Virus record (IMG/VR): IMGVR_UViG_3300013383_000019
DNA from: a virus
Taxonomy: Duplodnaviria; Heunggongvirae; Uroviricota; Caudoviricetes
Strand: one strand, 5' to 3'
DNA: 64,000 nt
Below the pieces are notes generated by a model. The model was not told where the DNA came from. It was given only the letters and a program-made list of their open reading frames with translations, and ran no database searches. Position numbers and translations under genes: made by a program. Positions 26,926 through 57,652 of the stretch are shown here, piece by piece; position 1 is the first letter of the stretch, and each line of letters starts with the position of its first letter.

Positions 26926-26926
26926 C

Positions 26927-27743: not shown

Positions 27744-27769
27744 ATGTCGCAGAAACGAGGTGTTTAATT

Positions 27770-28015
27770 ATGTGTGACAAAATCAAAAACCCACGCGGTG
27801 CCGGCCGCAAAACCCTTGGGGCGGAACCCCGCAGCGAACGCGTTCATCTCCGGCTCGAGCCCTGGATTGTTCATCGCGTCGATTCCCTCTGCCGGCAGGC
27901 GGGGGTTACCAGATCGGAAGCAATCCGGCAGGCAATTCTCTTCTATCTTTCCGAAACCGAAAAACAATTAGGAGGACAAAATTATTATGATGAATCAGAA
28001 TCCCGAAATCTTTGA
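27770..28015 (+). CDS. Ribbon-helix-helix (CopG/Arc-like) DNA-binding protein, 81 aa.
   Basis: RGAGRK..RVHLRLEPWIVHRVDSLCRQAGVTRSEAIRQAI. Confidence 0.55.
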   Translation: MCDKIKNPRGAGRKTLGAEPRSERVHLRLEPWIVHRVDSLCRQAGVTRSEAIRQAILFYLSETEKQLGGQNYYDESESRNL

Positions 28016-28208
28016 AACGAATAACTTCGCCCTCGAAACCTTCATCCACGTCCACGATATTCGCTATGAGAACTCCTATAAGGATGAGTTCGGCACGCGT
28101 TACTGGCGCTATCTGCGCACGCCCCGGCTGAATGAGGTCGTTGAGGAATATAAACAGATCGTCGCCGCGCGCAGAAGGAGGGAGCAGGGAAATGTACAGG
28201 CTGGTTGA
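27987..28208 (+). CDS. Hypothetical protein, 73 aa.
   Basis: RBS ggaggacaaaattatt; overlaps its neighbours. Confidence 0.4.
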   Translation: MMNQNPEIFETNNFALETFIHVHDIRYENSYKDEFGTRYWRYLRTPRLNEVVEEYKQIVAARRRREQGNVQAG

Positions 28209-43842: not shown

Positions 43843-46800
43843 ATGTACGTCAATTATCATAAACATGATCACATCTCCAATATCATGCTCGCCGACAGCG
43901 TCGCCACCATGGAGGATTACGCCAAGCGCGCCGTCGAACTGAACCAGACGGTTCTCTCCTCCTGTAATCATGGCACGCAGGGCAACTATTGGGAGTGCGC
44001 CGAGCTGGCTGAAAAGTATGGCCTGAAGTGGCGCTATGTTACCGAAGCCTATTTCGTCAAGGACCGCTTCGAAAAAGACAAATCCAACTGCCATCTCATT
44101 CTGGCAGCGAAGACGTGCAAAGGCGTCGGCGATTTGAATTACGCCCTCTCCGAAGCGAATATCACCGGCTATTATTATCGCCCCCGCATAGATCTGGAGC
44201 TGCTCATGGCGCTCGATCCCAAGGACGTATTCGTTACCACAGCCTGCGTCGGCGGTATTTGGAAGTACGGCGCCGAAGAGGCCGAACGATTGGTCACGCT
44301 CTTGAACGATCATTTTCGCGGCAGCTTCATGCTCGAGGTTCAGGCGCATAACGTCGATAAGCAGAAGGATGTCAACCGGTTCGTGCTCGATCTTTATCGC
44401 AAGTATAATATCCCGCTTATCGCCGCCACCGATTCCCATTTCATTTATCCTGAGGATTCCAAACTGCGCGATCAGCTGCTTGAGTCCCATCATCTCAAGT
44501 ATGAAGATGAAGAGGGTTGGGATATGGATTATCCCTCTGAAAAGCATTTGCTCGACAGATTTAAGGCGCAGGGCGTTCTGTCTGTCGCCCAGATTAATGA
44601 AGCGATGGAGAATACAAACGTCTTCCTGGATTTTGAGGATGTTTCGTTTGATAAACGCCGCAAGCTCCCCGCGGCTTATCCTGGTATGACGCAGGAAGAG
44701 CGCAACCAGAAGTATCTCGACCTTGTACATCAGGCGTGGGATCGGTATAAAGCTGAAGTGCCGCAGGAGCGTTGGCCGGAATACGAAGAAGCGATCCGCT
44801 ATGAAACAGACGCCGTTACCGGCACAAATACTTCGGATTATTTTCTCATTGATAACCGCATTGTCGATACAGCCAAGCGGGAAGGCGGGGTGTTAACCCA
44901 ATCTGGAAGGGGCTGTTTCACCGACACTGCGCGTGTGCCAACACTGACCGGGCTGAAACAAATTTCGCAAGTGGTTCCTGGAGACGTTGTAATTGATAAG
45001 GATGGGGATTATCAAAAAGTAATTGAAACCTTCTCTTATGATATTGACGAACCCCTTGTTGAAATTCAGGCTCCGGCGAATAAGATGTTTGGCTCTTATC
45101 CTACATGTACGTTGGATCATCGTGTTCTCGTTTGCCGGTTGAACGGCTCTTATGACTGGGTGGAAGCATCGCGGCTGAAGAAAGGGGATTTGCTTTGTGT
45201 TCCGAAGATTGTTCAGCCGGCCTCACAAACTGCCGAAGTGGTTGATCTCAGCAAATACATTAGCAGAGCCTCTATGTTTGACGGAGATCATATTTTTGAA
45301 TTACGCAAAGACATGATGCGCGAAGCGTTTGGCTGGGAAATCCTGATGAAAAAATTCCACATCTCCCGTTCAGCGTTATACAATTTTGTTGTTGGGCGAA
45401 CTTCCGCGGAAGTTCGTCGTGGCCCTGGGGTATATCTCAATAAAGCAAAAAGAGAAATACTCGATTATTATGGTGTTGATACTCAAGAAGCGCTTACGCA
45501 AAAATATAAGGATACTTGTTTTCGGTTGATGAGCAGATGGGTCGTTAAAGACGCGCTCTATTACGAATTCCTTGGTATGATGTATGGAGACGGCTGGGTT
45601 CGACATAGAAACGACGGCAGTTATGTCTGTGGTATTGCCATCAATGCGGAGAACGAAAAAAATATTTACAATCGCAAAATCTTTGAGACTATGGCATCGC
45701 GGGTTGGCGGAACTATTTATGAAGCGAAAGCTAAAAATAAAAAATTGGTTCAACTTACCCTGCATGCTTCTTCCTTTGCTAAATATCTTGGCTGTACGTA
45801 TTTCATTTCAAAAAAGGGAAACGATAAAGTTGTCCCCGATGAGATTTTGCTTCTTGATAACGAGAAATCAAAAGCTTTTTTATCGGGGCTTATGCGTACC
45901 GATGGCTGTTTTGCTGAATCGGATCGTAAATGCTTTGACAATACATCTCCTTCCTTGATGAACGCCTTTAATATTCTTTGTATGAAAGCTGGAGAGAAGC
46001 CGCCGCGGCTTACAGTGCGAGATCGTTGGTTTGATAAACGCGGTTATAACTGCAAAACCTCATATAAATGGGTTATTCCCGTTTATTCAACTCCTTATGG
46101 GATGTCACGCAAAATATCTGAAAACGACAAGTACTGGCTTATTCCAGTTACTGGAATCAATCTTCTACCTCGGCAGAAGTGCAAAGTCTACGATCTGCAT
46201 ATCGAAAATTCACACAGCTACTTACTTAATCATATGGTCGTCCATAATAGCGGCGTCAGTTTCCTGACGAATATGCTTCTCGGCTTCTCCTCCGTTGATC
46301 GCTTGAAGATGCCCGTCACCATGTACCCCGACCGGTTTATTTCCAAAGAGCGCCTGAGCACCGGTCAGATGCCGGATTTGGATTTGAACTGCGGCAACGT
46401 TGAGGTGTTTGAAAAAGCGCAGGCCGAGGTCATGGGCGAGTGGCATAGCGCGCAGATGGTCGCCTTTGGCACGCTCAAACGGCTTTCCGCCTGGAAGATG
46501 TATTGCCGTTCTACCAACGTCGCCTTCGAAACGGCTAACGCCATCTCTGACAGCTTGAAAAAGTATGAGCTTGATGTAAAATACGCCGAAGACGATGAAG
46601 ACCGCGAAGCCATCGATCCGTTCGATTACGTGCCCAAGGAGTATCATGAGCAGCTGCGCATGTCCAATAAATATCTTGGCATGGTCGATTCCATCTCCCC
46701 CAGCCCATGCTCCTATCTTCTGACCGATCAGGATATCCGCCGGGAAATTGGGCTTTATCGTATCAATAGCAAAACCGGCAAGAAGGGAACTATTTATGCC

Positions 46801-48354
46801 GCTTTTATCGACGGGGCGACAGCGGATCGATACGGATATCTAAAAAACGATCTTCTTTCCGTCACCGTCGTCAACATCAACACCGCCGCCTACAAGGCCG
46901 CCAATATCCCCCTCCCCTCTGTTAACGAACTGCTCGCCATGTGCCCGCCGGATGATCCAGTCTGGGATATGTACGCCAAAGGCTACACCATGGGGCTCAA
47001 TCAGGTTGAGCGCGAGAAGGCCACTGAAAAGGTCGCCCGCTATAAGCCGCGCAATATTACCGAGCTGGCCGCGTTCGTCGCCGCCATCCGCCCGGGCTTC
47101 AAGTCGATGATCGATACATTCCTCGCCCGCCGGCATTTCGATTATGGTATCCCCTCGCTGGATAACCTGCTTCAGACGAAAGAAATTCCCGACAGCTTCC
47201 TCATGTTTCAGGAGCAGATCATGAAGGTCCTCCAGCATGGCGGTTTCACCGGGGCCGAATCCTACGCCGCCATCAAGGCCATCTCGAAGAAGCATCCCGA
47301 AAAGGTGCTCGCTCTCAAGGAAAAGTTCCGCGCCACGTTCTCTCAGCGCATCGTGGAGGAGGAGCATGTCACTGAGGCCGAAGCTCTCGCCACCACCGAT
47401 AAAATCTGGCAGATCATCAACGATTCCTGCTCCTATCTTTTTAATGCATCGCATGCCACCTGCGTCGCGCTGGATAGTCTTTACGGCGCATGGCTCAAGG
47501 CGCACTATCCTTATCAGTATTACACCACCCTGCTTCGCGCCTACGCCGCCAAGAAGGATAAAGACCGCATCGCCAAAGCCAAGGAGGAAATGCGTCGGGC
47601 GTTCGGCATCCGCGTCGTCGCTTGCAAGTTCGGGCAGGATAACCGCGATTTCTTTATCGATGAAAGCGCGCACACCATCGCCGACGCGCTCACCTCCGTC
47701 AAGCACGTCAGTAGAAAAGTCGCCGACGCGCTCTATAAAATGCGCGATACGCTGTATCTTTACTTCACCGATCTGCTTTACGATATGGATATGTCTCCGG
47801 CCTTCGACGCTACAAGCATCACCGCGCTCATCAAGATGGGATACTTCAGCGATTTCGGCGGCTCCGCCAAACTGCTCAAGCTCTTTCAGGAGTTCAAGTC
47901 CGGCGAGAACCGGTTCTATAAAGGGCTCGTTGAGAAGACACAGCAGAAACGCCTCGTCGCCCTGCGCGATCTGGAAGCAGCTTTGCCGGATGAGGATCTC
48001 CCCATGGAAGAAATCATCCCCTTCGAGTGCGATTATTTCGGTGCCCCCCTCAGCGTCTATCCCGAAAAGAAGGGCTGCTACGCCGTCATCGATGTGGATG
48101 AAAAATACAGCCCCAAGCTGAAGCTCTATAGCGTCTCCACCGGAGACACCGGTGTGATGAAAATTCGCAAGCCCGATTTTGCTAAAAATCCCGTCAAGGC
48201 TGGCGACGTCATCAAGCTCCTTGGCTGGCAGAAGAAGCCCGCTTATCAGTATCAGGACGGCAAACGTTCTATCAAACCCGGCGTGACCGAGCTTTGGATG
48301 GACGGCTACAAAAAAATTTCCGTTTCGCCCGCTCAAACTGAAAAAGCGGGGTGA
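43843..48354 (+). CDS. dnaE: DNA polymerase III alpha-subunit-like (DnaE-type, N-terminal PHP domain) replicative polymerase interrupted by an intein.
   Basis: PHP motifs HKHDHISN and ATDSHF; polymerase core; RBS aaggggtggagg; the track ORF 43438..48354 carries an unsupported 5' extension. Confidence 0.75.
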   Translation: MYVNYHKHDHISNIMLADSVATMEDYAKRAVELNQTVLSSCNHGTQGNYWECAELAEKYGLKWRYVTEAYFVKDRFEKDKSNCHLILAAKTCKGVGDLNYALSEANITGYYYRPRIDLELLMALDPKDVFVTTACVGGIWKYGAEEAERLVTLLNDHFRGSFMLEVQAHNVDKQKDVNRFVLDLYRKYNIPLIAATDSHFIYPEDSKLRDQLLESHHLKYEDEEGWDMDYPSEKHLLDRFKAQGVLSVAQINEAMENTNVFLDFEDVSFDKRRKLPAAYPGMTQEERNQKYLDLVHQAWDRYKAEVPQERWPEYEEAIRYETDAVTGTNTSDYFLIDNRIVDTAKREGGVLTQSGRGCFTDTARVPTLTGLKQISQVVPGDVVIDKDGDYQKVIETFSYDIDEPLVEIQAPANKMFGSYPTCTLDHRVLVCRLNGSYDWVEASRLKKGDLLCVPKIVQPASQTAEVVDLSKYISRASMFDGDHIFELRKDMMREAFGWEILMKKFHISRSALYNFVVGRTSAEVRRGPGVYLNKAKREILDYYGVDTQEALTQKYKDTCFRLMSRWVVKDALYYEFLGMMYGDGWVRHRNDGSYVCGIAINAENEKNIYNRKIFETMASRVGGTIYEAKAKNKKLVQLTLHASSFAKYLGCTYFISKKGNDKVVPDEILLLDNEKSKAFLSGLMRTDGCFAESDRKCFDNTSPSLMNAFNILCMKAGEKPPRLTVRDRWFDKRGYNCKTSYKWVIPVYSTPYGMSRKISENDKYWLIPVTGINLLPRQKCKVYDLHIENSHSYLLNHMVVHNSGVSFLTNMLLGFSSVDRLKMPVTMYPDRFISKERLSTGQMPDLDLNCGNVEVFEKAQAEVMGEWHSAQMVAFGTLKRLSAWKMYCRSTNVAFETANAISDSLKKYELDVKYAEDDEDREAIDPFDYVPKEYHEQLRMSNKYLGMVDSISPSPCSYLLTDQDIRREIGLYRINSKTGKKGTIYAAFIDGATADRYGYLKNDLLSVTVVNINTAAYKAANIPLPSVNELLAMCPPDDPVWDMYAKGYTMGLNQVEREKATEKVARYKPRNITELAAFVAAIRPGFKSMIDTFLARRHFDYGIPSLDNLLQTKEIPDSFLMFQEQIMKVLQHGGFTGAESYAAIKAISKKHPEKVLALKEKFRATFSQRIVEEEHVTEAEALATTDKIWQIINDSCSYLFNASHATCVALDSLYGAWLKAHYPYQYYTTLLRAYAAKKDKDRIAKAKEEMRRAFGIRVVACKFGQDNRDFFIDESAHTIADALTSVKHVSRKVADALYKMRDTLYLYFTDLLYDMDMSPAFDATSITALIKMGYFSDFGGSAKLLKLFQEFKSGENRFYKGLVEKTQQKRLVALRDLEAALPDEDLPMEEIIPFECDYFGAPLSVYPEKKGCYAVIDVDEKYSPKLKLYSVSTGDTGVMKIRKPDFAKNPVKAGDVIKLLGWQKKPAYQYQDGKRSIKPGVTELWMDGYKKISVSPAQTEKAG
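44914..46248 (+). mobile_element. Intein of 445 aa with a LAGLIDADG homing endonuclease, inside the DnaE-like gene.
   Basis: N-terminal splice block G|CFTDTARV; C-terminal VVHN|S; two LAGLIDADG motifs, LGMMYGDGWV and LSGLMRTDGCF. Confidence 0.7.
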
Positions 48355-48375
48355 AAAATGTTCCCTTTATTATAT
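48355..48375 (+). promoter_or_regulatory. Conserved phage promoter motif, copy 4 of 5.
   Basis: aaaatgttccctttattatat 30 nt upstream of the ATG at 48405. Confidence 0.55.
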
Positions 48376-48404
48376 GAAAAGAAAACTTTGAAAGGGGTTC
48401 TGTT

Positions 48405-49487
48405 ATGGAAACAAGAGATTGGCGCAAAACGGTGGAAGATATGGCCGCCGAGCGTGAGCGCATCCGATCTCAACGTATCAAAAAAATAATCCTTATCGCC
48501 GCCTGCGCGCTTCTTGTGCTTGTACTTAGCGTCAACGCAGTGGGAGTCGTTCCGTATAACCATACCGGCGTACTGCGTCGGGCGGGAGTTGTCCAGAAGG
48601 AAGGCGTGTCAGAAGGCTGGTTTCTTAAAATCCCGTTTGTCGATTCGCTTGATCTAATCTCCAATCAGGTCCAGACGCTGCGTATCGCCAGCGGCACTTC
48701 GAAGCCAACCACGTCTGATACCGCCGAAACAAAAGATCGTCAGCTCGTGCCTGTCTTTGAGTTCGAGATTCAGCATCAGCTCGCGCCGGAAAAGTCTTAC
48801 GATGTGTATACCAACTACGGTAAGAATTACACCGGTGTCCTGGTCGAGTCCAACGCTCTGGCGATTATCAAACAGGTCTTCTCTCTTTATGATAGCGAAG
48901 ATATCGTCAATAATAAGGAAGCAATTCCCGCGCAGATCGCCGAGCGGCTGGATGAGATCACGAAACCGTACGGTATCAATATTCTCCGCGTCAACATGAA
49001 GACGTACGATTTTACGCCGGAGTATACTGCCATCCTTGAGGAGCGTGCCCGCCTCAGCGCTGAACTCACCAACACCGAACTGCGCCAACAGAAAGAAAAA
49101 ATTTCCGCGCAAACCGAATACGACGTCGCCGTCAAACAGGCCGAACAGAAAGCCGAGCAGGAACGCATCAAGGCGGAAAGCGATCAAGCCGTCGCGCTGA
49201 TCAACGCACAGGCGTCCGCCGAGGCTGAAAAGATCCGTGTGGATAACGAAGCCTATGTGATCAAGACCCGTGCCGCGGCTGATAAGCAGGCCAGGCTGGA
49301 TGCCGCCGAAGCTACCAAGGCTGAATTGGAAGCCAGCAAGGCCGGCTTGAGCGAGCTTGTAATCCAACAGCAGATGATCGAAAAATGGAACGGCCAGCTG
49401 ATGCCCAACTTCGGCAGCGGCAGCGGTTTCAATTTTGCGAATCTGACCAATGTTCTCGAACAATATCTCCTTGGAGGTGAAGAATAA
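48405..49487 (+). CDS. SPFH/band-7 (prohibitin or HflK-like) membrane protein.
   Basis: N-terminal TM helix; SPFH-like core; long Ala/Glu/Lys coiled coil. Confidence 0.55.
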   Translation: METRDWRKTVEDMAAERERIRSQRIKKIILIAACALLVLVLSVNAVGVVPYNHTGVLRRAGVVQKEGVSEGWFLKIPFVDSLDLISNQVQTLRIASGTSKPTTSDTAETKDRQLVPVFEFEIQHQLAPEKSYDVYTNYGKNYTGVLVESNALAIIKQVFSLYDSEDIVNNKEAIPAQIAERLDEITKPYGINILRVNMKTYDFTPEYTAILEERARLSAELTNTELRQQKEKISAQTEYDVAVKQAEQKAEQERIKAESDQAVALINAQASAEAEKIRVDNEAYVIKTRAAADKQARLDAAEATKAELEASKAGLSELVIQQQMIEKWNGQLMPNFGSGSGFNFANLTNVLEQYLLGGEE

Positions 49488-49865
49488 ATGGAAGAACTGC
49501 GCTTTGTAAACGCCGGCTTGAAGCATGCCGTCTGCGCGAATCATGTCATCGCCGTTCTTAACCCGCGCACCATGACCTCGAAAGAATAGGTGAAAGCCGC
49601 CAAAGGCCGTAAGCATCTGCTTGATGCGACGGTCGGGCGCAAAATCCGCTCCGTCATTCTCTTTAACGAGGGCACCGTTATGCTCTCCTCTCTCCGGTTT
49701 GAAACGCTGCTCATGCGCCTCAACGGCGATATGCGCGGCAACCTCTATGATCGGGATAGCGAATACGCTGAAACCGATCCTGAAAACACGGACGGCGTCG
49801 AGGCGGATTCCCTCATTAATAATGAAGAAGGAAAGGAGGAATCAACCTTCGATGAAGGTAATTGA
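49488..49865 (+). CDS. RemA/DUF370-like protein with an in-frame TAG at codon 34 (49587-49589) and an acidic C-terminal extension.
   Basis: MEELRFVNAGLKHAVCANHVIAVLNPRTMTSKE*VKAAKGRKHLLDATVGRKIRSVILFNEGTVMLSSL aligns with B. subtilis RemA (..[46 protein letters not shown]..) on both sides of the TAG. Confidence 0.55.
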
Positions 49866-50520
49866 CCAGTCTTTTAAGATTCTCTCGCCGTCCACGCCGG
49901 AGCGCGCACTGGAAACGCTGCGCCTTATCGAATACGCCGCCCGTAATTGCTATCGCTCGCATGATAAAATCACGGCCGATAGCTGGCGCAAGTTTCTTGG
50001 CGGGCTTATAAAGCGGGGGCATGAAGCCCCTATTGAGTTTGGCGACGCCATGGTTGAGCTCGTCACCGGGCGCGATGTCCTGGCCGAGATCACACGGCAC
50101 CGGCTCCCCAGTTTCTGCGTTCAGAGCCAGCGCTATGTCGAAGATGATAAGACCGGAGATATCAGCTTCATCCGGCCGGATATCTATCTTCCAGCCGAAG
50201 GCCCCGATCTGGATGCGAAAACATGGTGCGCTTCCCGCGGCTGGGATGCGTCCATGGAGCATGCCGAAACTTATTACCGGTATCTCAGGCATGAGTGCGG
50301 CATGAAGGCGGAGGACGCACGTAAAGTACTCCCCAATTCCACCGCCTGCATCATCGTCATGAAGGCGAATCTGCGGGAATGGCGGCATATTTTTCAGCTG
50401 CGCACCTCGTCGGCCGCTTATCCGGAAATGCGCTCGCTCATGCGCCCGTTGCTTTGCGAATTCCAGAAACTGTTTCCCGTTATTTTTGATGATATCACAT
50501 GGGAGGAAAAGAATGCTTGA
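49852..50520 (+). CDS. thyX: Flavin-dependent thymidylate synthase ThyX.
   Basis: ThyX signature ITRHRLPSFCVQSQRY (RHR..S....S.RY); RBS gaaaggagga. Confidence 0.85.
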   Translation: MKVIDQSFKILSPSTPERALETLRLIEYAARNCYRSHDKITADSWRKFLGGLIKRGHEAPIEFGDAMVELVTGRDVLAEITRHRLPSFCVQSQRYVEDDKTGDISFIRPDIYLPAEGPDLDAKTWCASRGWDASMEHAETYYRYLRHECGMKAEDARKVLPNSTACIIVMKANLREWRHIFQLRTSSAAYPEMRSLMRPLLCEFQKLFPVIFDDITWEEKNA

Positions 50521-50731
50521 TGGGTTTATCAAGAATCCAGACTCTGAATTTCTTTGGAACCTTCGGAAACGAATCAAGGCCAACTCGGGTTTCTGCCCCT
50601 GCAAGAGGGAAAAGACGAAGGATACGAAGTGCCCCTGTAAAGACTTCCGCGAGCATGGCGATTGCGCCTGCGGCATGTATATCCGCAATCCGAACGTGGA
50701 TGAAGAATTTGTAAACGAGGGGTATGTCTGA
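50513..50731 (+). CDS. Small Cys-rich protein resembling the ferredoxin-thioredoxin reductase catalytic chain (CPC..CPC..C.C).
   Basis: GFCPCKREKTKDTKCPCKDFREHGDCACGMY; paralog at 56391. Confidence 0.5.
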   Translation: MLDGFIKNPDSEFLWNLRKRIKANSGFCPCKREKTKDTKCPCKDFREHGDCACGMYIRNPNVDEEFVNEGYV

Positions 50732-51240
50732 TGAATACCGACGAAATCTATTTTGAAAAGGTTTCCTTTGACGAGTTCCGGGAGACGTTCGAAAAAGGAA
50801 GGCAAATCGCCCCTTTGGGCGTAGCCGAAATGCGTAAGATCTGGGAGGCGATTCCGCTTCCCTGCCGCGCAACGGCCGGTTCGGCGGGCTATGATTTCTT
50901 CCTTCCCTATGAAATTGAAGTCCTCCCCGAGTATCCGCTCACTCTGCCGACAGGTATCCGCTGCCATATGCCGCCCGGCGTAGTCCTCGCGATCGTTCCC
51001 AAATCCGGGCTCGGTTTCAAATATGGCCTGCGCCTGCGCAACAGCACCGGGATCGTCGACAGCGATTATTACTATTCGTCTAATGAGGGGCATATTCAGG
51101 CCAAGCTCACCGCCGAAGAGCCCGTTCGTCTGCCGGGCTGCGCGAAGTTTATGCAGGGCATTTTCCTCCCTTATCTGACGGCCGCGAACGATACCGCGTC
51201 CGGCGTGCGCAACGGGGGATTTGGCAGCACAGGTGTCTGA
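50731..51240 (+). CDS. dut: dUTP diphosphatase.
   Basis: Motifs RATAGSAGYDF, GIVDSDYYY and RNGGFGSTG. Confidence 0.8.
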   Translation: MNTDEIYFEKVSFDEFRETFEKGRQIAPLGVAEMRKIWEAIPLPCRATAGSAGYDFFLPYEIEVLPEYPLTLPTGIRCHMPPGVVLAIVPKSGLGFKYGLRLRNSTGIVDSDYYYSSNEGHIQAKLTAEEPVRLPGCAKFMQGIFLPYLTAANDTASGVRNGGFGSTGV

Positions 51241-51409
51241 TATGTTCTTTGTTGGCTGCATGTTTGGAATCTCCACCGTTTCGCTGTTTGCCAGCCTCGT
51301 GCGTCTGGGGGTTCCTTTATGGGTGTTAGTTGCCATTCTTGCTGTTTTTCTGGTTGTCATTGTCTCTTGTGATGATGACGATGATAATCATTCTCTTCCG
51401 AGGCGGTGA
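51221..51409 (+). CDS. Small membrane protein with a poly-Asp tail.
   Basis: Track ORF; TM helices then DDDDD. Confidence 0.4.
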   Translation: MAAQVSDMFFVGCMFGISTVSLFASLVRLGVPLWVLVAILAVFLVVIVSCDDDDDNHSLPRR

Positions 51410-51419
51410 TGTAATGTAG

Positions 51420-51767
51420 ATGTTGATTGATTTCCTTGGCGTTTTTCTTGGGGCGGCGGTACTTACCGCGCTCATCTGGATATTGACGCACTGGGTTTCC
51501 TATGTGGCCGCGTGGGTGCTGGCCGTCACGGTCTGCGTTGCAGGCACGTTCCTGCGCGCATGGATTGATATTAAATATGGTGAAAGGATTCGAAATTATG
51601 GCAAACGAAATGAAAGAACTGTGGGATCTGCTCAACTTTCTTGCGGAGAAGGAGGAGCCGAAAACAGACTCTTCCCTGAAGACGGAGAAACCGGCAAAGC
51701 CGGAGGGAGTGAAGGAATTCCCGAAGCCGAAGGAAGACCTGCCGGAGGAAATGAAGCAGGCGATTAA
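51420..51767 (+). CDS. Hypothetical membrane protein; its true 3' end is uncertain because it overlaps 51598..51879.
   Basis: Track ORF with N-terminal TM helices; the C-terminus looks like out-of-frame read-over. Confidence 0.3.
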   Translation: MLIDFLGVFLGAAVLTALIWILTHWVSYVAAWVLAVTVCVAGTFLRAWIDIKYGERIRNYGKRNERTVGSAQLSCGEGGAENRLFPEDGETGKAGGSEGIPEAEGRPAGGNEAGD

Positions 51768-51879
51768 CGCCGGCCGCACGCGCGCCGCTTATTTCGCCGC
51801 TCTTTACAAGATGCTTCTCTCGCTGGAGATCCCGGACGACGTCGCTTATGACGTGACGCTCGCCGATGCCCGCAGATGA
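51598..51879 (+). CDS. Hypothetical protein, 93 aa.
   Basis: RBS aaagga. Confidence 0.4.
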   Translation: MANEMKELWDLLNFLAEKEEPKTDSSLKTEKPAKPEGVKEFPKPKEDLPEEMKQAINAGRTRAAYFAALYKMLLSLEIPDDVAYDVTLADARR

Positions 51880-52241
51880 CGCTTTCTCAGCTAAACGAAG
51901 CTGTGCGCCAGGCGGTTGCGGGTACGCTGTGTGACCCTGACAAGGTGGAAGTCCTCATTTCCCTGGGCTTCCCCTCGTTGGGGCCTCCGGCGGGTGTCGA
52001 AGTTTCCCATGGTTATCTCGGCTTTGACTGGGAGGGCGAAGGGTTCCGACTGGTTCCCGCCAGCGAGCTGGTTGAATGGCGCAAGAACCGGGATAACCCC
52101 CTCCCTCCGCTGGAACAAACCATGGATGATGGGCGGCGCAAGCTTCATACGCTGCGCTGCCCCGCCTGCCCCAACGAAGTTAAACGAACCGATCGATATT
52201 GCCCGCAATGCGGGCAGAGATTAAAAAGGAGCACGCAATGA
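51876..52241 (+). CDS. Hypothetical protein with a C-terminal zinc ribbon.
   Basis: CPACPNE..CPQCGQ. Confidence 0.5.
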   Translation: MTLSQLNEAVRQAVAGTLCDPDKVEVLISLGFPSLGPPAGVEVSHGYLGFDWEGEGFRLVPASELVEWRKNRDNPLPPLEQTMDDGRRKLHTLRCPACPNEVKRTDRYCPQCGQRLKRSTQ

Positions 52242-52960
52242 TTTGGCTTACCGGCGATAAACACGGCGATTATAGTTCCGTCGAACTTTTCTGCGAGTCC
52301 CATGACGTCGGTAAAGACGCAGGCGGAGATATCATGGTTGTGCTTGGCGATAACGGGGTGAATTACTTTGGCGGCAAACGGGATAGAAAACTCAAGGCCG
52401 AGCTCACCACTTTGCCGCTGACCTTCTTTATGGTTCGCGGCAATCATGATCAGCGCCCCAGCCGCAAGGTCTGCCGCGAGGAAGACTATGTCAGTTCTTA
52501 TCTTTCAGGCCCCGTGCTCGTCGAGGATGAGTTTCCAAATATTCTCTATGCGAAAGACGGCGGCCTGTATGATTTCAGCGGCATGAGCGTCATGGTGATC
52601 GGCGGTGCTTACAGCATCGATAAATTTATCCGGCTCGAGCGTCAGGCGCAGGGATTCCCGCAATATCGCTGGTTCCCCGATGAACAGCTTTCGAAATCTG
52701 AAAGAGATTCTATTCTGGAAACCGCGCGCGTCCATCGCCCCGATGTTATCCTCTCTCATACCTGCCCCCAGAGCATGATCCCCTGGGATCGATGCGCTCC
52801 CAATATTTATGGAGGCCCTCCCGATTATACCATGGAACGCTGGATGGACGAGGTAGACGCCGCCGCGCTCGAGCCTGAATGGTTTTGCGGGCACTGGCAT
52901 CTTGATCGCCGCGTGCCGCCCCGCACCCGTTTTCTGTATCATGATTTTATTGATTTCTGA
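52238..52960 (+). CDS. Calcineurin-like metallophosphoesterase (lambda-PPase-type Ser/Thr phosphatase).
   Basis: Motifs LTGDKHGD, VLGDNGVNYFG and VRGNHDQ; RBS aaaaggag. Confidence 0.7.
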   Translation: MIWLTGDKHGDYSSVELFCESHDVGKDAGGDIMVVLGDNGVNYFGGKRDRKLKAELTTLPLTFFMVRGNHDQRPSRKVCREEDYVSSYLSGPVLVEDEFPNILYAKDGGLYDFSGMSVMVIGGAYSIDKFIRLERQAQGFPQYRWFPDEQLSKSERDSILETARVHRPDVILSHTCPQSMIPWDRCAPNIYGGPPDYTMERWMDEVDAAALEPEWFCGHWHLDRRVPPRTRFLYHDFIDF

Positions 52961-52969
52961 GGTGATAAA

Positions 52970-53326
52970 ATGCTTGGCGATAATGTAATCTTCGGGGTCG
53001 GTAAAGACGTCCCCGTCGTCGTGAACAGCGAAGGCGGCAAGCAAAGCCGCAGCCCTTATGCTTTCCAGCTTCTGCCCGTGCATGCAATGTTTGCCGCGGC
53101 TGAAGTCGCGAAGGCCGGTGCTGAGAAATACGGCGAAACCTTCGCCTGCCGTAACTATACAAAAATCCCGCCCGAGGAGCATATCGGGCATTGCATCCAA
53201 CATCTGTACGCTTATCTTGCCGGCGATATCAGCGATGATCATCTGGCGCACGCCATTGTCCGCGCGCTCTTCGCTTATGAGACAGATAAGCTGGCGCGTG
53301 AAAGCGAGGGGACGCCCTGTGCCTGA
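52970..53326 (+). CDS. Hypothetical protein, 118 aa.
   Basis: Track ORF. Confidence 0.45.
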   Translation: MLGDNVIFGVGKDVPVVVNSEGGKQSRSPYAFQLLPVHAMFAAAEVAKAGAEKYGETFACRNYTKIPPEEHIGHCIQHLYAYLAGDISDDHLAHAIVRALFAYETDKLARESEGTPCA

Positions 53327-53828
53327 AACCGCCGTCGATGTCTTCGCCTGCGATCTCTCGCTCCATCGCCCCGGCTTTGCGCTGCTTCATTGTGAGAATA
53401 ATACGATCACCGTGCGCGAGCTCAGCAATGTCAACAACAAGTATGCCCGCAAGAAAACGCATGGCCAGATGCTTCTGGAGATTGCGCGCGAATAGAAGCG
53501 ATATATGACCACCTACCCAAACGCCATATTAGTTCGCGAGAAAGCAATTTACCCCGGCCGCTATCAGATGAAGACCATCGGGGTTTTGCATAAGGTTGTC
53601 GGCGTGGCCGATCTTTATGCCTGGCATTTGACAGGCAGAGAGTTTGAAGAGATCGATCCTCGCATGACCAAGCGCATCGTCACCGGCGATGCTAACGCGG
53701 AGAAAGATCGTGTCGCCGAAATGCTGGATGATTACGTTGGCGCTCAGCGCTATGCCTGCGACGACGAATCTGATGCGGTAGCGGTAGGCGTCGCGTGGCT
53801 TATTCAAAATAAAATTTTTCAAATGTGA
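53319..53828 (+). CDS. RuvC-like Holliday-junction resolvase with an in-frame TAG at 53493-53495.
   Basis: GTG start. N-terminal VDVFACDLSLHRPGFALL (RuvC D-x-G/S-type motif); C-terminal DESDAVAVGVAW matches the RuvC D.ADA.A.A motif. Track ORFs 53058..53495 and 53505..53828 are in frame and are separated by TAG-AAG-CGA-TAT. Confidence 0.55.
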
Positions 53829-53842
53829 AAAAGGGGGCATGA

Positions 53843-53863
53843 AAATGTTCCCTTTATTATATG
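53843..53863 (+). promoter_or_regulatory. Conserved phage promoter motif, copy 5 of 5.
   Basis: aaaatgttccctttattatat 20 nt upstream of the ATG at 53883. Confidence 0.55.
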
Positions 53864-53882
53864 AAAGGAGTTTGATTCCGAA

Positions 53883-54095
53883 ATGACGCTTTATACTCTT
53901 CCCGGCTGCCCCATGTGCGACCTGCTTGCCGAGCGGCTCGCGCAGCTTTAGATCCCATGCAATATTGTTTCCGATGCGGAGCAGCTGAAGGCAAAAGGCA
54001 TTCAGGTTGTCCCCGCCCTCGAAGACAAGGACGGCAATCTCATGAACTTTGCGCAGGCTATGAAATATCTCAGCAAAGGAGTATCTGTTGAATGA
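53883..54095 (+). CDS. nrdH: NrdH/glutaredoxin-like redoxin with an in-frame TAG at codon 23 (53949-53951).
   Basis: MTLYTLPGCPMCDLLAERLAQL*IPCNIVSDAEQLKAKGIQVVPALEDKDGNLMNFAQAMKYL has the CPxC redox motif and NrdH/Grx-like spacing on both sides of the TAG; ATGA overlap with nrdD. Confidence 0.55.
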
Positions 54096-56413
54096 TCCCC
54101 GACAAATATGCGCGCTATCGTCCGGAAGCAAATTTCATCAGACGTTATATGGATGAAAAATGCGCCGCCGAAAGCAGCGACTATGATCCAAACTCCAATG
54201 TCAGTTCAAAGAATCTGGCCACCCTCGCGTCCGAAAGCGGTAAGCGCGGCCGCATCTATACCAGCCGGTTGATGATGCACGATATGCTCACCGCCATGTA
54301 CGGCGAGGAAGAGGCCGACAGCTACATTGACAACCTCGAAACCCATCGTGTCTATTGCCATGATGAAACCGGCCAAACCCCGCAGATCTATTGCGCCAGC
54401 ATCACCATGTACCCGTTCCTACTGCACGGCTTGAAGGGGCTGGGCGGCACGTCGGATGCTCCCAAGACGCTGCAAAGTTTCGCCGGCGGGTTTGTCAATC
54501 TGGTGTTCGCCGCCTCCGCTCAGGTGCTCGGCGCGATTGCCACTCCAGAGTTTCTCGCCTATATGAACTATTTCCTCGTCAAGGAATACGGCGAAGATTA
54601 TTATCTGAAGCCTGATACGCAGGCCGAGCTCTTTGGCCGCAAGCGCACCATTGATAACGTGATCACCGATACCTTCGCGCAGGTTGTCTACTCGGTCAAT
54701 CAACCGGCGGCGGCGCGCGGCAATCAGGCCGTCTTCTGGAATATTTCCTATTTTGATGAGCCGTATTTCCGCGGGCTGTTCGAAGGTTTCGCCTTCCCGG
54801 ACGGCACAGTAATGACCGATCTCTGGGAGTCCCTCTGGTGGCTGCAGGTTCGGTTTATGAAGTGGTTTAATCAGGAGCGGCTCCGCAAGATCATCACCTT
54901 CCCGGTCGAAACGTTCTCTCTCCTGAACAACGGCAAGACGGCTGTTGACCAGCGGGCACTGAAGCATATCGCCGAGATGTATGCCGAAGGGCACAGTTTT
55001 TTCACTTATACCAGCGATAGCGTGGATAGCTTGAGTTCGTGCTGCTTTGCGCCGGATACACTGTTCTCCGTCTGGGACCAGCATAACACATTGCTTGTCG
55101 GGGCTGCAGAGCGTCTTTACCAGATGCTTGAACAGGAACAGGATTTTCGTGTTCGGGTTATGCTCGGTGAGGAAGTGGTTCCCGCGACTCTCATTCGTCT
55201 CCCCGGCCGTCAGATGTATTTTATCACAATCGACGTCAAGCCGAACGCCCGCCGTATGTATGAGGTGACGGATAACCATCTTTTCCCCACCCGGCGCGGA
55301 GACGTCCAGGCGAAGGAGCTCGTCGAGGGGGATGAAGTCCAGTGTTGGGATCCCGAAAGCAGGATGTATACATACCGCCCGGTATCTGAGGTGATCGAGA
55401 GCGCCAATACATACGATTATGTTTACTGCCTCGAGGTTGATGATGGGTGCGAGCCCTACTTCATGCTTCCCTCCGGAGTAATTACGCATAACTGCCGCCT
55501 GAAAAACAACATCGTTGAAAACCAGTTCACTTACAGCCTTGGCGCGGGCGGCATCGCGACCGGCTCCAAGCGCGTCATGACCATCAATATCAACCGGCTC
55601 GTTCAGGGCTGCGGCGGCGATCTGGCCAAGGTCAAAGCCTCGCTTGACGATCTGACCGCGCATGTCCATCGCTATTTGAAAGCGTATAACGCGATGGTGA
55701 AGGATGCGCAGGCCAAGCATATGATCCCGCTTTATGACGCAGGGTTCGTTTCGCCGGAGAAGCAGTATCTTACCGTTGGCATCAACGGTCTGGTCGAGGC
55801 GGCGGAGTATCTGGGCATTCCGGTCGGTGACAACAAGGCTTACGGCGAGTTCACTGATCTCATCCTTGATACGATTCACCGGCGGAACGTGGCCGATGCC
55901 GAGCCGGGCGTTATGTTTAACACGGAGTACGTGCCAGCCGAAAGCTTAGGCGTGAAGAACGCCAAATGGGATAAAGCCGACGGGCTCTCCGTCCCGAGAG
56001 CGTGTTATAACAGCTATTTCTTCGTGGTTGAAGATCCTAAAACAACGGTTCTTGATAAGATTCGGCTGCATGGCGATCGTTATATCCGCAATCTCGACGG
56101 CGGCAGCGCCTGCCATATCAACCTCGAAGAACACCTCACCGCTCGCCAGTACGAGCTGCTCATTCTCAACGCGATTCATGAAGGCTGCTCGTATTTTACC
56201 TTCAACGTTCCCAATACCATCTGCAACGACTGCGGGTATATCAGCAAGCACAAGCTGGAGAAGTGCCCAAAGTGCAGCAGTGAAAATCTGGATTATGCCA
56301 CGCGCATCATCGGCTATCTGACCCGCGTGTCGAAGTGGTCGGCCGAGCGCAAGAATGAATATGACCGGAGGTATTTCGGTGGACAGGAATATGAAAATCA
56401 AACTGAATCCTGA
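54092..56413 (+). CDS. nrdD: Anaerobic ribonucleoside-triphosphate reductase NrdD (class III), containing a mini-intein.
   Basis: C-terminal zinc ribbon CNDCGY..CPKCSS plus the glycyl-radical motif RIIGYL; large catalytic core. Confidence 0.8.
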   Translation: MIPDKYARYRPEANFIRRYMDEKCAAESSDYDPNSNVSSKNLATLASESGKRGRIYTSRLMMHDMLTAMYGEEEADSYIDNLETHRVYCHDETGQTPQIYCASITMYPFLLHGLKGLGGTSDAPKTLQSFAGGFVNLVFAASAQVLGAIATPEFLAYMNYFLVKEYGEDYYLKPDTQAELFGRKRTIDNVITDTFAQVVYSVNQPAAARGNQAVFWNISYFDEPYFRGLFEGFAFPDGTVMTDLWESLWWLQVRFMKWFNQERLRKIITFPVETFSLLNNGKTAVDQRALKHIAEMYAEGHSFFTYTSDSVDSLSSCCFAPDTLFSVWDQHNTLLVGAAERLYQMLEQEQDFRVRVMLGEEVVPATLIRLPGRQMYFITIDVKPNARRMYEVTDNHLFPTRRGDVQAKELVEGDEVQCWDPESRMYTYRPVSEVIESANTYDYVYCLEVDDGCEPYFMLPSGVITHNCRLKNNIVENQFTYSLGAGGIATGSKRVMTININRLVQGCGGDLAKVKASLDDLTAHVHRYLKAYNAMVKDAQAKHMIPLYDAGFVSPEKQYLTVGINGLVEAAEYLGIPVGDNKAYGEFTDLILDTIHRRNVADAEPGVMFNTEYVPAESLGVKNAKWDKADGLSVPRACYNSYFFVVEDPKTTVLDKIRLHGDRYIRNLDGGSACHINLEEHLTARQYELLILNAIHEGCSYFTFNVPNTICNDCGYISKHKLEKCPKCSSENLDYATRIIGYLTRVSKWSAERKNEYDRRYFGGQEYENQTES
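55043..55492 (+). mobile_element. Mini-intein of 150 aa without an endonuclease domain, inside nrdD.
   Basis: N-terminal block C|CFAPDTLF; C-terminal VITHN|C; Hint-domain length; the flanks rejoin to a ..SSC-CRL.. extein. Confidence 0.6.
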
Positions 56414-56576
56414 TAAGGATTTCGTCGCGATGCTCAGGGGGAGAATAGCCGCTAACAACGGCTATTGCCCCTGCCGGGTCGAGAAGACTGATGATAACAA
56501 ATGTCCGTGCCTTGCGTTCCGGACGACAAAGGAATGTTGCTGCGGCCTCTATGTGCAGGTACCGGCCGATGATTAA
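56391..56576 (+). CDS. Second FTR-catalytic-chain-like small Cys protein.
   Basis: GYCPCRVEKTDDNKCPCLAFRTTKECCCGLY; paralog of 50513..50731. Confidence 0.45.
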   Translation: MKIKLNPDKDFVAMLRGRIAANNGYCPCRVEKTDDNKCPCLAFRTTKECCCGLYVQVPADD

Positions 56577-57458: not shown

Positions 57459-57652
57459 CCAACTCCTTCATTGTTTCCGCGCTCCACACAGGCCGGAACG
57501 TCGAAGTTTATGCTGTTCGTAACGATAAGAACGGCTACCCGCAATTCCTCGTCTATGAAAATCGTCAATGGTGTTGGCGTTCTGCAAAAAACTACGAGCC
57601 GCTGTCTGCGGCCGGAAAGGAAATGCCTGTAAACGGATATGAAATTGAGTGA
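57455..57652 (+). CDS. Hypothetical protein, 65 aa.
   Basis: Track ORF with a 4-nt overlap. Confidence 0.4.

What the first reader, a model, noticed from the sequence alone, without database searches (positions are those of the whole stretch)
43843..56413. Two inteins in replication and nucleotide-metabolism genes: a LAGLIDADG intein in the DnaE-type polymerase and a mini-intein in NrdD
The DnaE-like gene is interrupted by a 445 aa intein at 44914..46248. It has Block A CFTDTARV, the terminal VVHN|S, and two LAGLIDADG motifs, which indicates an active homing endonuclease.

nrdD carries a 150 aa Hint-only mini-intein at 55043..55492 (C|CFAPDTLF...VITHN|C). It is inserted at a Cys-Cys-Arg site near the catalytic region. 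This is a region where other phages carry group I introns.

Inteins in both the replicative polymerase and the RNR point to active exchange of selfish elements among related phages. They also provide convenient markers of the phage's lineage.
Basis: partly seen in the sequence, partly recalled or inferred. Interest (0 to 1): 0.5.

Follow-up and report, generated by a model that had tools for sequence, protein, structure and literature searches.

The report
Two inteins in phage DnaE and NrdD
The phage's DNA polymerase gene and its anaerobic ribonucleotide reductase gene are each interrupted, exactly at an active-site motif, by a self-splicing protein element (intein); the call is correct, but both belong to intein families already known in phages.

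Summary
The dnaE-type polymerase gene (43843..48354) carries a 445-aa insert (44914..46248). The nrdD gene (54092..56413) carries a 150-aa insert (55043..55492).

For each gene, metagenomes hold a near-identical allele that is shorter by exactly the insert length, with a seamless junction: DnaE 1058 vs 1503 aa, NrdD 623 vs 773 aa. Predicted structures match solved inteins: PI-TkoII, PI-SceI and I-DmoI for the DnaE insert, and RadA, RecA and DnaB mini-inteins for the NrdD insert.

The DnaE intein splits the dNTP-binding GS motif (GRG|S). The NrdD intein sits between the two essential cysteines of the SCCR motif.

Related phages show every state of these elements: empty sites, full-length inteins, endonuclease-deleted inteins, a second occupied DnaE site and a group I intron. 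The DnaE intein looks recently acquired (42% vs 53% GC; a cluster of synonymous changes at the junction). The NrdD mini-intein matches its host gene in composition.

Homologous inteins at the same sites occur in Lactococcus phage 949 (DnaE) and Clostridium phage c-st (NrdD), so these are new members of known kinds.

One overlooked detail: the NrdD intein family has an invariant Cys, not Asp, at block F position 4, plus Thr at G:5. That is a partial class-3 signature alongside Cys1.

Endonuclease activity is plausible but unproven. The T4 nrdD intron lies about 110 codons away, not at this site.

The parts
43843..48354 (+). dnaE-type (Pol III alpha-like) polymerase gene encoding a 1503-aa precursor; the mature protein after splicing would be 1058 aa
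   Evidence: Pfam PHP, DNA_pol3_alpha and DNA_pol3_finger. The gene start matches homologues P0121 and P0122. It aligns to Taq Pol III alpha, 2hpi.
43843..44913 (+). DnaE N-extein (357 aa), ending ...LTQSGRG
   Evidence: Alignment with the intein-free allele P0122.
44914..46248 (+). DnaE intein, 445 aa, standard class-1 residues: Cys1, T66xxH69 (block B), D427 (block F:4), H444-N445, Ser+1
   Evidence: GC is 42.2% against 53.2% in the exteins.
44914..45222 (+). N-terminal splicing (Hint) lobe of the DnaE intein, aa 1-103
   Evidence: This part is retained in the endonuclease-deleted version of the same intein in relative L004. The model shows beta strands.
45223..46107 (+). Endonuclease module of the DnaE intein (aa 104-398): a helical, HTH-like segment (about aa 130-205) followed by a two-motif LAGLIDADG core
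   Evidence: L004 lacks exactly this stretch. About 60 aa of the helical segment are missing in Lactococcus phage 949. Foldseek matches PI-TkoII, PI-SceI, PI-PfuI and I-DmoI.
45556..45600 (+). LAGLIDADG motif 1 (LYYEFLGMMYGDGWV); the putative catalytic Asp226 is at 45589..45591
   Evidence: MYGDG is invariant in 7 homologues.
45871..45912 (+). LAGLIDADG motif 2 (KAFLSGLMRTDGCF); the putative catalytic Asp330 is at 45901..45903
   Evidence: G325, L326, D330 and G331 are invariant. Pfam LAGLIDADG_3 scores 20.1 bits, below its cut-off.
46108..46248 (+). C-terminal splicing lobe of the DnaE intein (aa 399-445), with blocks F and G: KVYDLHIENSHSYLLNHMVVHN
46249..48354 (+). DnaE C-extein, starting SGVSFLTN; Ser+1 corresponds to the serine of the GS motif
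44887..46260 (+). Junction-flanking extein codons (44887..44913 and 46249..46260) with a dense cluster of synonymous differences from the intein-free allele
   Evidence: 18 of 39 nt differ against an 11.3% background. This is the gene-wide maximum; binomial p = 5e-8, 1.6e-4 after correction.
54092..56413 (+). nrdD gene (anaerobic class III RNR, the subclass with an SCCR motif) encoding a 773-aa precursor; the mature protein would be 623 aa
   Evidence: Pfam NRDD, E = 8e-85. Aligns to T. maritima NrdD, 4coi.
54092..55042 (+). NrdD N-extein (317 aa), ending ...DSLSSC
   Evidence: Alignment A1 with intein-free P0003, P0006 and P0007.
55043..55492 (+). NrdD mini-intein, 150 aa, no endonuclease domain. 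Key residues: Cys1, T76xxH79, Phe81 (B:12), Cys129 (F:4, at 55427..55429), Thr148 (G:5), H149-N150, Cys+1
   Evidence: GC is 54.0% against 54.1% in the exteins.
55493..56413 (+). NrdD C-extein, starting CRLKNN; Cys+1 is the second Cys of the SCCR motif
   Evidence: PMC4493059.

Best explanation
What it is. Both inserts are genuine inteins in an uncultivated phage of roughly 110 kb. After translation, each excises itself and joins its flanking exteins, which restores an active-site motif that is broken in the precursor.

The DnaE intein (445 aa)
- It is a canonical class-1 intein with an embedded two-motif LAGLIDADG homing endonuclease.
- It sits between Gly and Ser of the GS motif (GRG|S), which contacts the incoming dNTP. 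Ser+1 therefore serves both as the splicing nucleophile and as a catalytic-site residue.
- Inferred: the endonuclease cuts intein-free dnaE alleles at this site during co-infection, and the intein is copied in by double-strand-break repair (homing).

The NrdD intein (150 aa)
- It is an endonuclease-less derivative of a full-length LAGLIDADG intein family that occupies the same site.
- It lies between the two essential cysteines of the SCCR motif.
- It can no longer home by itself. It persists because only precise removal would leave a working gene.

Shown: the insertions, the empty-site alleles, homology to known inteins, the predicted folds, conservation of the splicing residues, and polymorphism among relatives.

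Inferred: that splicing actually happens, that the endonuclease is active, and the homing history.
For: Empty-site alleles
- P0122 is 445 aa shorter than the window DnaE and 96% identical. P0003 is 150 aa shorter than the window NrdD and 97% identical. Both junctions are seamless.
- The DNA alignments to the intein-free contigs break only at the insert borders.

Splicing residues
- DnaE family: C1, T66, H69, D427, H444 and N445 are invariant.
- NrdD family, 29 sequences: C1, T76, H79 and N150 are invariant, and Cys+1 is present in every sequence that extends past the intein.

Family and fold
- Pfam Intein_splicing scores 44.1 bits for the DnaE insert.
- DnaE intein model: pLDDT 86. Best PDB matches are PI-TkoII (E = 4e-17), the TliVMA intein, PI-SceI, PI-PfuI and I-DmoI.
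- NrdD intein model: pLDDT 96. Best matches are the RadA, RecA and DnaB mini-inteins.

Insertion sites
- GRG|S aligns with GRGS of Taq Pol III alpha. In E. coli, Arg362-Gly363-Ser364 contact dGTP (bioRxiv 10.64898/2026.06.29.735100).
- C|C aligns with tmNrdD Cys329|Cys330. The C329A and C330A mutants are inactive (PMC4493059).

Mobility and the homing cycle
- Relative L005 has both sites empty. L007 has both inteins.
- L004 has the same DnaE intein with residues 104-398 deleted, and a degenerate full-length NrdD intein.
- P0002 and P0005 (about 80% identical to the window NrdD) carry full LAGLIDADG inteins at the NrdD site.
- The DnaE intein has 42.2% GC against 53.2% in its exteins. The NrdD intein has 54.0% against 54.1%.
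- There is a cluster of synonymous changes at the DnaE junction, including AGC/AGT versus TCG/TCC serine codon switches. None is seen at the NrdD junction.
- The host gene is under strong purifying selection: dnaE extein dN/dS is 0.05 between the window and L007.
Against:
- The NrdD mini-intein alone fails the Pfam cut-off (E = 0.048).
- The LAGLIDADG_3 match is sub-threshold.
- A relative carries the endonuclease-deleted form, so the endonuclease is dispensable and could already be inactive here.
- The junction cluster of synonymous changes, and the mosaic boundary 18 nt upstream of the intein in the window/L007 comparison, could come from ordinary phage recombination stopped by the heterology, rather than from homing.
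- The Cys at block F:4 of the NrdD intein departs from the class-1 norm.
Confidence: 0.9

Rival explanations
1. The DnaE intein is a resident, splicing-competent element whose LAGLIDADG endonuclease is no longer active. Its distribution would then reflect vertical descent and general recombination, not ongoing homing.
For: - Pfam LAGLIDADG_3 scores below its cut-off.
- A close relative carries a clean endonuclease deletion.
- The window and L007 share a clonal frame of about 100% identity, with divergent patches that look like ordinary mosaic recombination.
Against: - Both catalytic Asp residues and about 35 endonuclease-domain positions are invariant at 31-50% identity.
- The model is a confident PI-SceI/I-DmoI-like fold.
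- The GC content is 11 points below that of the host gene.
- The junction-specific synonymous cluster is the gene-wide maximum.
- The same site is occupied in more than 20 diverse phage contigs.
Confidence: 0.3
2. The NrdD intein does not use a pure class-1 pathway. Its invariant block-F Cys129 would act as a class-3-type branch nucleophile, or form a regulatory disulfide with Cys-1, Cys1 or Cys+1, making maturation of the oxygen-sensitive enzyme depend on redox state.
For: - F:4 is Cys in 29 of 29 family members, and G:5 is Thr in 21 of 29.
- B:12 is Trp in 7 of 29, which gives those members a full WCT triplet. Cys flanks both junctions.
- Standard inteins usually have Asp at F:4; Cys there marks WCT inteins, and three WCT inteins with Ser1 or Cys1 were known (PMC2807308).
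Against: - Cys1, Thr B:7 and His B:10 are invariant, as expected for class 1.
- B:12 is Phe in the window.
- The +1 residue is Cys rather than the Ser or Thr typical of class 3 (PMC5222942).
- Fold matches are best to class-1 mini-inteins.
Confidence: 0.15
3. The inserts are native lineage-specific domains, or dead inteins that stay in the mature proteins.
For: None beyond the lack of experimental proof of splicing. The NrdD insert fails the Pfam threshold.
Against: - Alleles 96-98% identical lack the inserts precisely.
- The inserts break the GS and SCCR motifs, which are needed for activity.
- All splicing residues are intact.
- The exteins are under strong purifying selection.
Confidence: 0.02

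Closest known systems
Clostridium botulinum phage c-st NrdD (CST076) intein, also reported in phage D-1873
   Same: - The insertion point is identical, between the two Cys of SCC|...HN|CRL.
- The Hint blocks are homologous, including VYCFE (Cys at F:4) and ITHN.
- An FTR-beta-like small ORF lies downstream of nrdD in both phages.
- The intein is mentioned in PMC3653736.
   Different: - The c-st intein is full length and carries a LAGLIDADG domain (its NrdD is 978 aa). The window has a 150-aa endonuclease-less derivative.
- The two NrdD proteins are only 29% identical overall.
DnaE (ORF116) intein of Lactococcus phages 949 and P1048
   Same: - It has the same GRG|S insertion site in a phage Pol III alpha-like gene.
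- It is a homologous intein (34% identity) with both LAGLIDADG motifs.
   Different: - It is 376 aa and lacks about 60 aa of the helical, HTH-like segment found in the window's intein.
- The GenBank record does not annotate an intein feature in that CDS.
PI-SceI, PI-PfuI, PI-TkoII and TliVMA (solved LAGLIDADG-containing inteins)
   Same: The predicted architecture is the same: a Hint splicing domain with an inserted two-motif LAGLIDADG endonuclease and an accessory DNA-binding region (Foldseek E = 4e-17 to 3e-10).
   Different: - Sequence identity is only 12-16%.
- The host proteins and the accessory helical segment differ.
- No sequence-level PDB hit was found.
Cyanobacterial split DnaE inteins (Ssp, Npu) and the second DnaE site used in relatives of this phage
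   Same: These are inteins in Pol III alpha at a dNTP-pocket motif. Relatives P0125, P0144, P0145 and others carry 175-aa mini-inteins or 272-aa HNH-containing inteins at FN(S/A)|SH.
   Different: - The site differs: it is the FNxSH helix-loop-helix motif, not the GS motif.
- The window is empty there.
- That the cyanobacterial site lies at the neighbouring CFNKSH is from memory and was not tested.
Class 3 (WCT) inteins, for example mycobacteriophage Bethlehem DnaB and Msm DnaB-1
   Same: The NrdD intein family has Cys at F:4 and Thr at G:5, and Trp at B:12 in 7 of 29 members.
   Different: The NrdD family has an invariant Cys1, Thr B:7 and Cys+1, and Phe at B:12 in the window. It is not a helicase P-loop insertion.

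Membership tests
Intein (Hint-domain protein-splicing element) | In-frame insertion absent from close orthologues, leaving a seamless conserved host motif | tested here: met
   DnaE: P0122 is 445 aa shorter, junction SGRG|SGVSF. NrdD: P0003, P0006 and P0007 are 150 aa shorter, junction SSC|CRL. The DNA alignments break at the borders.
Intein (Hint-domain protein-splicing element) | Cys/Ser at position 1, TxxH in block B, C-terminal (H)N, and Cys/Ser/Thr at +1 | tested here: met
   DnaE: C1, T66xxH69, H444-N445, S+1. NrdD: C1, T76xxH79, H149-N150, C+1. These residues are invariant in both families.
Intein (Hint-domain protein-splicing element) | Hint fold | tested here: met
   The AF2 models have pLDDT 96 and 86. 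The top PDB matches are all inteins. These are predicted structures, not solved ones.
Intein (Hint-domain protein-splicing element) | Pfam Intein_splicing (PF14890) at or above the gathering score | tested here: inconclusive
   The DnaE insert scores 44.1 bits against a 35.8 cut-off (met). The NrdD mini-intein scores 13.9 bits, E = 0.048 (not met). Full-length relative P0002 at the same site scores 41.9 bits.
Intein (Hint-domain protein-splicing element) | Actual excision and extein ligation | not testable with these tools
   This needs expression with SDS-PAGE or mass spectrometry.
Class 1 intein | Asp at block F position 4 (the usual, not universal, class-1 residue) | tested here: inconclusive
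   The DnaE intein has D427, invariant. The NrdD intein has Cys129, Cys in 29 of 29. Asp is the usual residue in standard inteins (PMC2807308).
Class 3 (WCT) intein | Lacks the Cys/Ser/Thr nucleophile at position 1 | tested here: not met
   Cys1 is present in 29 of 29 NrdD-site inteins.
Class 3 (WCT) intein | Trp at B:12, Cys at F:4, Thr at G:5 | tested here: inconclusive
   The window has Phe81, Cys129 and Thr148. In the family, W occurs in 7 of 29, C in 29 of 29 and T in 21 of 29.
Class 3 (WCT) intein | Ser or Thr at +1 (typical) | tested here: not met
   Cys+1 occurs in every family sequence that extends past the intein.
LAGLIDADG homing endonuclease (two-motif, intein-embedded) | Two LAGLIDADG helices, each ending in an acidic residue | tested here: met
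   GMMYGD226G and LMRTD330G. They are invariant in 7 homologues.
LAGLIDADG homing endonuclease (two-motif, intein-embedded) | Pfam LAGLIDADG_3 at or above the gathering score | tested here: not met
   20.1 bits against a 22.5 cut-off, second motif only.
LAGLIDADG homing endonuclease (two-motif, intein-embedded) | Pseudo-dimeric alpha-beta-beta-alpha-beta-beta-alpha core fold | tested here: met
   Foldseek matches I-DmoI (E about 2e-6, target TM 0.63-0.69) and the endonuclease domains of PI-SceI, PI-PfuI and PI-TkoII. This rests on a predicted model.
LAGLIDADG homing endonuclease (two-motif, intein-embedded) | Site-specific cleavage of the intein-less allele | not testable with these tools
   Only indirect signs are available: low GC, the junction synonymous cluster, and presence/absence polymorphism.
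NrdD SCC|CR-site intein allele (c-st type) | Same insertion point and homologous splicing blocks | tested here: met
   Alignment with c-st CST076 and with P0002. The best hits of the mini-intein in 1.8 billion representative proteins are almost all NrdD proteins.
   No Rfam family reaches its gathering score anywhere in the window. The T4 nrdD intron lies after about residue 180, not at Cys290.

The most novel reading that the evidence does not exclude
The NrdD-site inteins would form a distinct mechanistic lineage. It combines a class-1 Cys1 with an invariant class-3-type block-F cysteine and Thr at G:5, and is flanked by cysteines at -1 and +1. In this reading they splice through a hybrid or class-3-like branched intermediate, or they are gated by disulfide formation among these four cysteines. 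The oxygen-sensitive, thioredoxin-dependent NrdD would then mature only under reducing, anoxic conditions, which is a built-in post-translational redox switch in a phage metabolic gene.
Probability: 0.12. Interest if true: 0.55.

Novelty: new member of a known kind. Interest (0 to 1): 0.3.

Why it matters
For annotation, it matters that these two ORFs are precursors. The mature polymerase is 1058 aa and the mature reductase 623 aa, and homology or structure tools should be given the spliced sequences.

Biologically, the locus and its metagenomic relatives illustrate the whole homing cycle within one phage lineage: empty site, endonuclease-bearing intein, endonuclease-deleted mini-intein and degenerate forms. 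These occur at two active-site motifs, alongside a second DnaE intein site and a group I intron in relatives.

The mini-intein is compact (150 aa) and has Cys at -1, 1 and +1 and at block F:4. It could be of practical interest for protein engineering, or as a test case for the boundary between class-1 and class-3 mechanisms. None of this changes current understanding of inteins.

Tried and rejected
Searches that gave nothing useful
- Megablast of the 12.6-kb region against deposited phages found no match.
- A sequence search of the DnaE intein against the PDB gave no hits. The fold search was needed instead.
- The word-indexed protein search with the DnaE intein alone returned one protein, which reflects the index's limited sensitivity. 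That protein, P0241, nevertheless led to the endonuclease-deleted relative.
- Rfam and tRNA scans of the window found nothing, so no introns accompany the inteins here.

Literature and look-ups
- A literature search for 'Cys330' found nothing. The SCCR paper was found by another query.
- Tori & Perler 2011 (PMC3133030) is not held.
- The first region fetched from T4 did not contain nrdD. A PDB search with a T4 exon-plus-intron translation failed on stop codons. A plain translation was used instead to place the T4 intron.

Analyses that were inconclusive or rejected
- dN/dS of the inteins between the window and L007 is uninformative: there are 0-1 differences.
- Against L004, synonymous sites are saturated.
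- I considered reading the near-identity of the intein between the window and L007 (1 of 1335 nt, against dS = 0.14 in the exteins) as proof of recent horizontal intein transfer. I rejected this as proof. The two genomes share a frame of about 100% identity with discrete divergent patches, so the intein may simply lie in the clonal frame.

Full report
**1. Observation**

The long + strand ORF at 43438..48354 has its real start at 43843 (MYVNYHKHDH...), as in homologues P0121 and P0122. It encodes a Pol III alpha (DnaE)-type polymerase with Pfam PHP, DNA_pol3_alpha and DNA_pol3_finger domains, plus an Intein_splicing match above the curated cut-off.

Translation of 44914..46251 gives CFTDTARV...NHMVVHN|S, 445 residues. 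Translation of 55040..55495 gives C|CFAPDTLF...GVITHN|C, 150 residues. The second lies inside an ORF (54092..56413) that matches Pfam NRDD in two pieces.

**2. Are they insertions? Empty-site alleles**

A search of 5.8 billion proteins found, for each gene, an allele with the insert and one without.

| Gene | With insert | Without insert | Length difference |
|---|---|---|---|
| NrdD | P0001, 773 aa, 96% identity | P0003, 623 aa, 97% identity | exactly 150 aa |
| DnaE | P0121, 1503 aa, 99% identity | P0122, 1058 aa, 96% identity | exactly 445 aa |

- In NrdD, P0006 and P0007 are further intein-free relatives. The junction is ...DSLSSC|CRLKNN... with no other change.
- In DnaE, the junction is ...LTQSGRG|SGVSFLTN....
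- The contigs of the intein-free alleles (L001, L002) align to the window at 81-89% nucleotide identity. The alignments break only at 44888/46261 and 55045/55492.

This rules out native domains.

**3. Are they inteins? Residues and fold**

*DnaE insert*
- C1, T66, H69 (block B TxxH), V425-Y426-D427 (block F), H444 and N445 are invariant across homologues of 31-50% identity. Every homologue aligned through the junction has Ser at +1. These are standard class-1 residues.
- Its AlphaFold model (pLDDT 86) matches solved endonuclease-containing inteins best: PI-TkoII (E = 4e-17), the TliVMA intein, PI-SceI and PI-PfuI.
- The central part matches the monomeric two-motif LAGLIDADG enzyme I-DmoI.

*NrdD insert*
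- Alone it scores only E = 0.048 against Pfam Intein_splicing.
- Its model is very confident (pLDDT 96), and the best PDB matches are all inteins. The top hits are mini-inteins: RadA, RecA, DnaB, gp41-1 and VidaL.
- In 29 family members, C1, T76, H79 and N150 are invariant. C+1 is present in every sequence that extends past the intein.
- Relatives whose NrdD is about 80% identical (P0002, P0005) carry a 340-aa version at the same site. It has recognisably homologous N- and C-terminal splicing lobes and a LAGLIDADG domain that passes the Pfam cut-offs.
- The window's element is therefore an endonuclease-deleted derivative of that family.
- Searched against 1.8 billion representative proteins, the mini-intein finds 56 proteins. 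Eight of the ten best are NrdD proteins, so the family is specific to this host gene.

**4. Where they sit**

*NrdD*
- In the alignment with T. maritima NrdD (4coi), the NrdD insert falls between Cys329 and Cys330 of 328-SCCR-331.
- Aurelius et al. (PMC4493059) align this motif with T4 288-MGCR-291, which holds the radical Cys290. They show that C329A and C330A are each inactive.
- So the splicing nucleophile Cys+1 is itself an essential catalytic-motif residue, and the residue at -1 is the other essential Cys.

*DnaE*
- In the alignment with Taq Pol III alpha (2hpi), the DnaE insert falls in GRG|SAAGS.
- In E. coli this is the GS motif (Arg362, Gly363, Ser364), which contacts the incoming dNTP (bioRxiv 10.64898/2026.06.29.735100).

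Both unspliced precursors should therefore be inactive. That is the usual logic of intein placement.

**5. Evidence on mobility and age**

Close relatives show several states.

| Relative | DnaE site | NrdD site |
|---|---|---|
| L005 (110.7-kb contig) | empty | empty |
| L007 | intein as in the window | intein as in the window |
| L004 (DnaE exteins 86-92% identical) | same intein with residues 104-398 removed cleanly (151-aa mini-intein); also a group I intron elsewhere in dnaE | degenerate full-length intein |

*Other occupied sites*
- Other relatives carry inteins at a second DnaE site (FN(S/A)|SH). These are 175-aa mini-inteins or 272-aa HNH-containing forms. The window is empty there.

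*Composition*
- The DnaE intein has 42.2% GC against 53.2% in its exteins. The NrdD mini-intein has 54.0% against 54.1% (the dip is visible).
- This suggests the DnaE intein arrived recently and the NrdD one is an old resident.

*Junction codons*
- Against the intein-free allele, the 39 nt around the DnaE junction differ at 18 positions, against an 11.3% background.
- This is the maximum for any such window in the gene (p = 5e-8; 1.6e-4 after correction).
- The changes include AGC/AGT versus TCG/TCC serine switches, which single synonymous steps cannot produce.
- Nothing comparable is seen at the NrdD junction (4 of 39).
- Two readings fit: co-conversion during homing, or a cleavage-resistant target in the intein-free allele. 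I cannot tell these apart.

*Distribution*
- The DnaE intein family is essentially viral. There are 38 matching loci in IMG/VR; the 23 examined that keep both intein ends lie at (G/S/C)RG|S.
- Only one match turned up in 185,579 species genomes, on a 6.5-kb MAG contig.

*Caution on the window/L007 comparison*
- The intein differs at 1 of 1335 nt, while the dnaE exteins have dS = 0.14.
- However, the two genomes share a frame of about 100% identity interrupted by discrete divergent patches.
- One patch (43965..44895) ends 18 nt before the intein. That is suggestive of the intein border acting as a recombination boundary.
- It is not proof of intein transfer.

**6. Mechanism**

*Most likely mechanism*
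- Both precursors splice by the standard four-step pathway: N-S acyl shift at Cys1, trans-esterification to Ser+1 or Cys+1, Asn cyclisation, then acyl shift.
- Splicing restores the GS and SCCR motifs.
- The DnaE intein's endonuclease, helped by a helical HTH-like segment that Lactococcus phage 949's shorter homologue lacks, would cut intein-free dnaE during co-infection and be copied in.
- The steps shown are those in sections 2-5. Splicing and cleavage are inferred.

- In the NrdD intein family, block F position 4 is Cys in 29 of 29 sequences. Block G position 5 is Thr in 21 of 29. Block B position 12 is Phe in 15 and Trp in 7.
- Standard inteins usually have Asp at F:4, and Cys there is the mark of class-3 'WCT' inteins (PMC2807308, PMC5222942).
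- Because Cys1, Thr B:7, His B:10 and Cys+1 are invariant, I do not file it as class 3.
- A role for Cys129, catalytic or redox, remains open.

**7. Comparison with what is known**

- NrdD inteins in phages have been reported for Clostridium phages c-st and D-1873 and, as remnants, for Lactococcus phage 949 (PMC3653736). Intein_splicing-domain proteins are also common among the insertions between nrdD fragments of Jug phages (PMC12880540).
- I checked c-st directly. Its NrdD (CST076, 978 aa) carries a full LAGLIDADG intein at the identical SCC|...ITHN|CRL point, with the same VYCFE block F.
- For DnaE, Lactococcus phages 949 and P1048 carry a homologous 376-aa intein at the same GRG|S site.
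- Both elements are therefore new members of known families at known sites.
- The remark about group I introns holds only at the level of the gene. The T4 nrdD intron follows about residue 180, some 110 residues before Cys290, and the window has no Rfam intron match.

**8. Verdict**

The finding is correct and well localised, and its interpretation is largely right. It is ordinary for large phage genomes.

Modest added value comes from:
- the exact active-site placement;
- the display of homing-cycle states among relatives;
- the compositional contrast between the two inteins;
- the class-3-like cysteine of the NrdD family.

Interest is 0.3.

Noticed in passing
L004 12118..12406 (relative; corresponds to window dnaE codon ~1003, about 46849): A relative's dnaE is split by a probable group I intron (Rfam RF00028, 41.3 bits, E = 5e-9, below the gathering score of 50). 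It sits in the LKNDL|L palm motif. The window has no intron there.
   Followed up: partly
window about 47450 (dnaE codons for YLFNA|SHA); relatives P0124, P0125, P0144, P0145, P0172: A second intein site lies in the FNxSH dNTP-pocket motif of DnaE. Relatives carry 175-aa mini-inteins or 272-aa HNH-containing inteins there. The site is empty in the window.
   Followed up: partly
window 56355..56576 and 50486..50731 (+): Two small Cys-rich ORFs match the ferredoxin:thioredoxin reductase catalytic subunit (PF02943; 23.6 and 23.5 bits against a cut-off of 22). One overlaps the 3' end of nrdD, with the same synteny as CST077 next to nrdD in phage c-st. Since SCCR-type NrdD enzymes use thioredoxin-type reductants, this may be a phage-encoded reductant partner.
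   Followed up: partly
window 43965..44895, 47802..~49700, 39250..40800 versus L007: The window and the L007 contig are about 100% identical, except for discrete patches of roughly 93% identity (in the DNA ligase gene, the dnaE N-extein, and the dnaE 3' end plus the Band_7 gene). The dnaE N-extein patch stops 18 nt before the intein. This is recombination mosaicism, with one boundary at the intein border.
   Followed up: partly
window 40849..42051 (+), with neighbours 39.5-40.8 kb: There is a phage-encoded WGR-PARP protein (PF00644, E = 1e-21). In syntenic relatives it sits next to an ATP-dependent DNA ligase and a small protein with a faint Macro-domain hit. This is an ADP-ribosylation module just upstream of dnaE.
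   Followed up: no
window 52970..53326 (+); also 57639..58880, 49852..50520, 50731..51240: A nucleotide-metabolism cluster surrounds the two genes: the N-terminal domain of a dATP/dGTP diphosphohydrolase (PF18909), a metallophosphatase, ThyX, dUTPase, SHMT and a probable NrdG (CPHRCPGC motif, no Pfam hit). It could indicate dNTP-pool editing or DNA modification.
   Followed up: no
window 23517..29088 (+); 17768..18526; 20890..22035: An AAA_21 ATPase, a DUF6088/AbiEii toxin-antitoxin pair, a GP88-family protein and a tyrosine integrase lie upstream of the replication module. There are also two Bro-N/ANT antirepressor-like genes. This suggests a temperate or defence-carrying phage.
   Followed up: no
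L024 1456..2763 (IMG/VR contig): One homologue of the DnaE intein lacks Cys1 and the terminal HN and is flanked by stop codons. It may be a free-standing or decayed copy of the endonuclease-intein.
   Followed up: no
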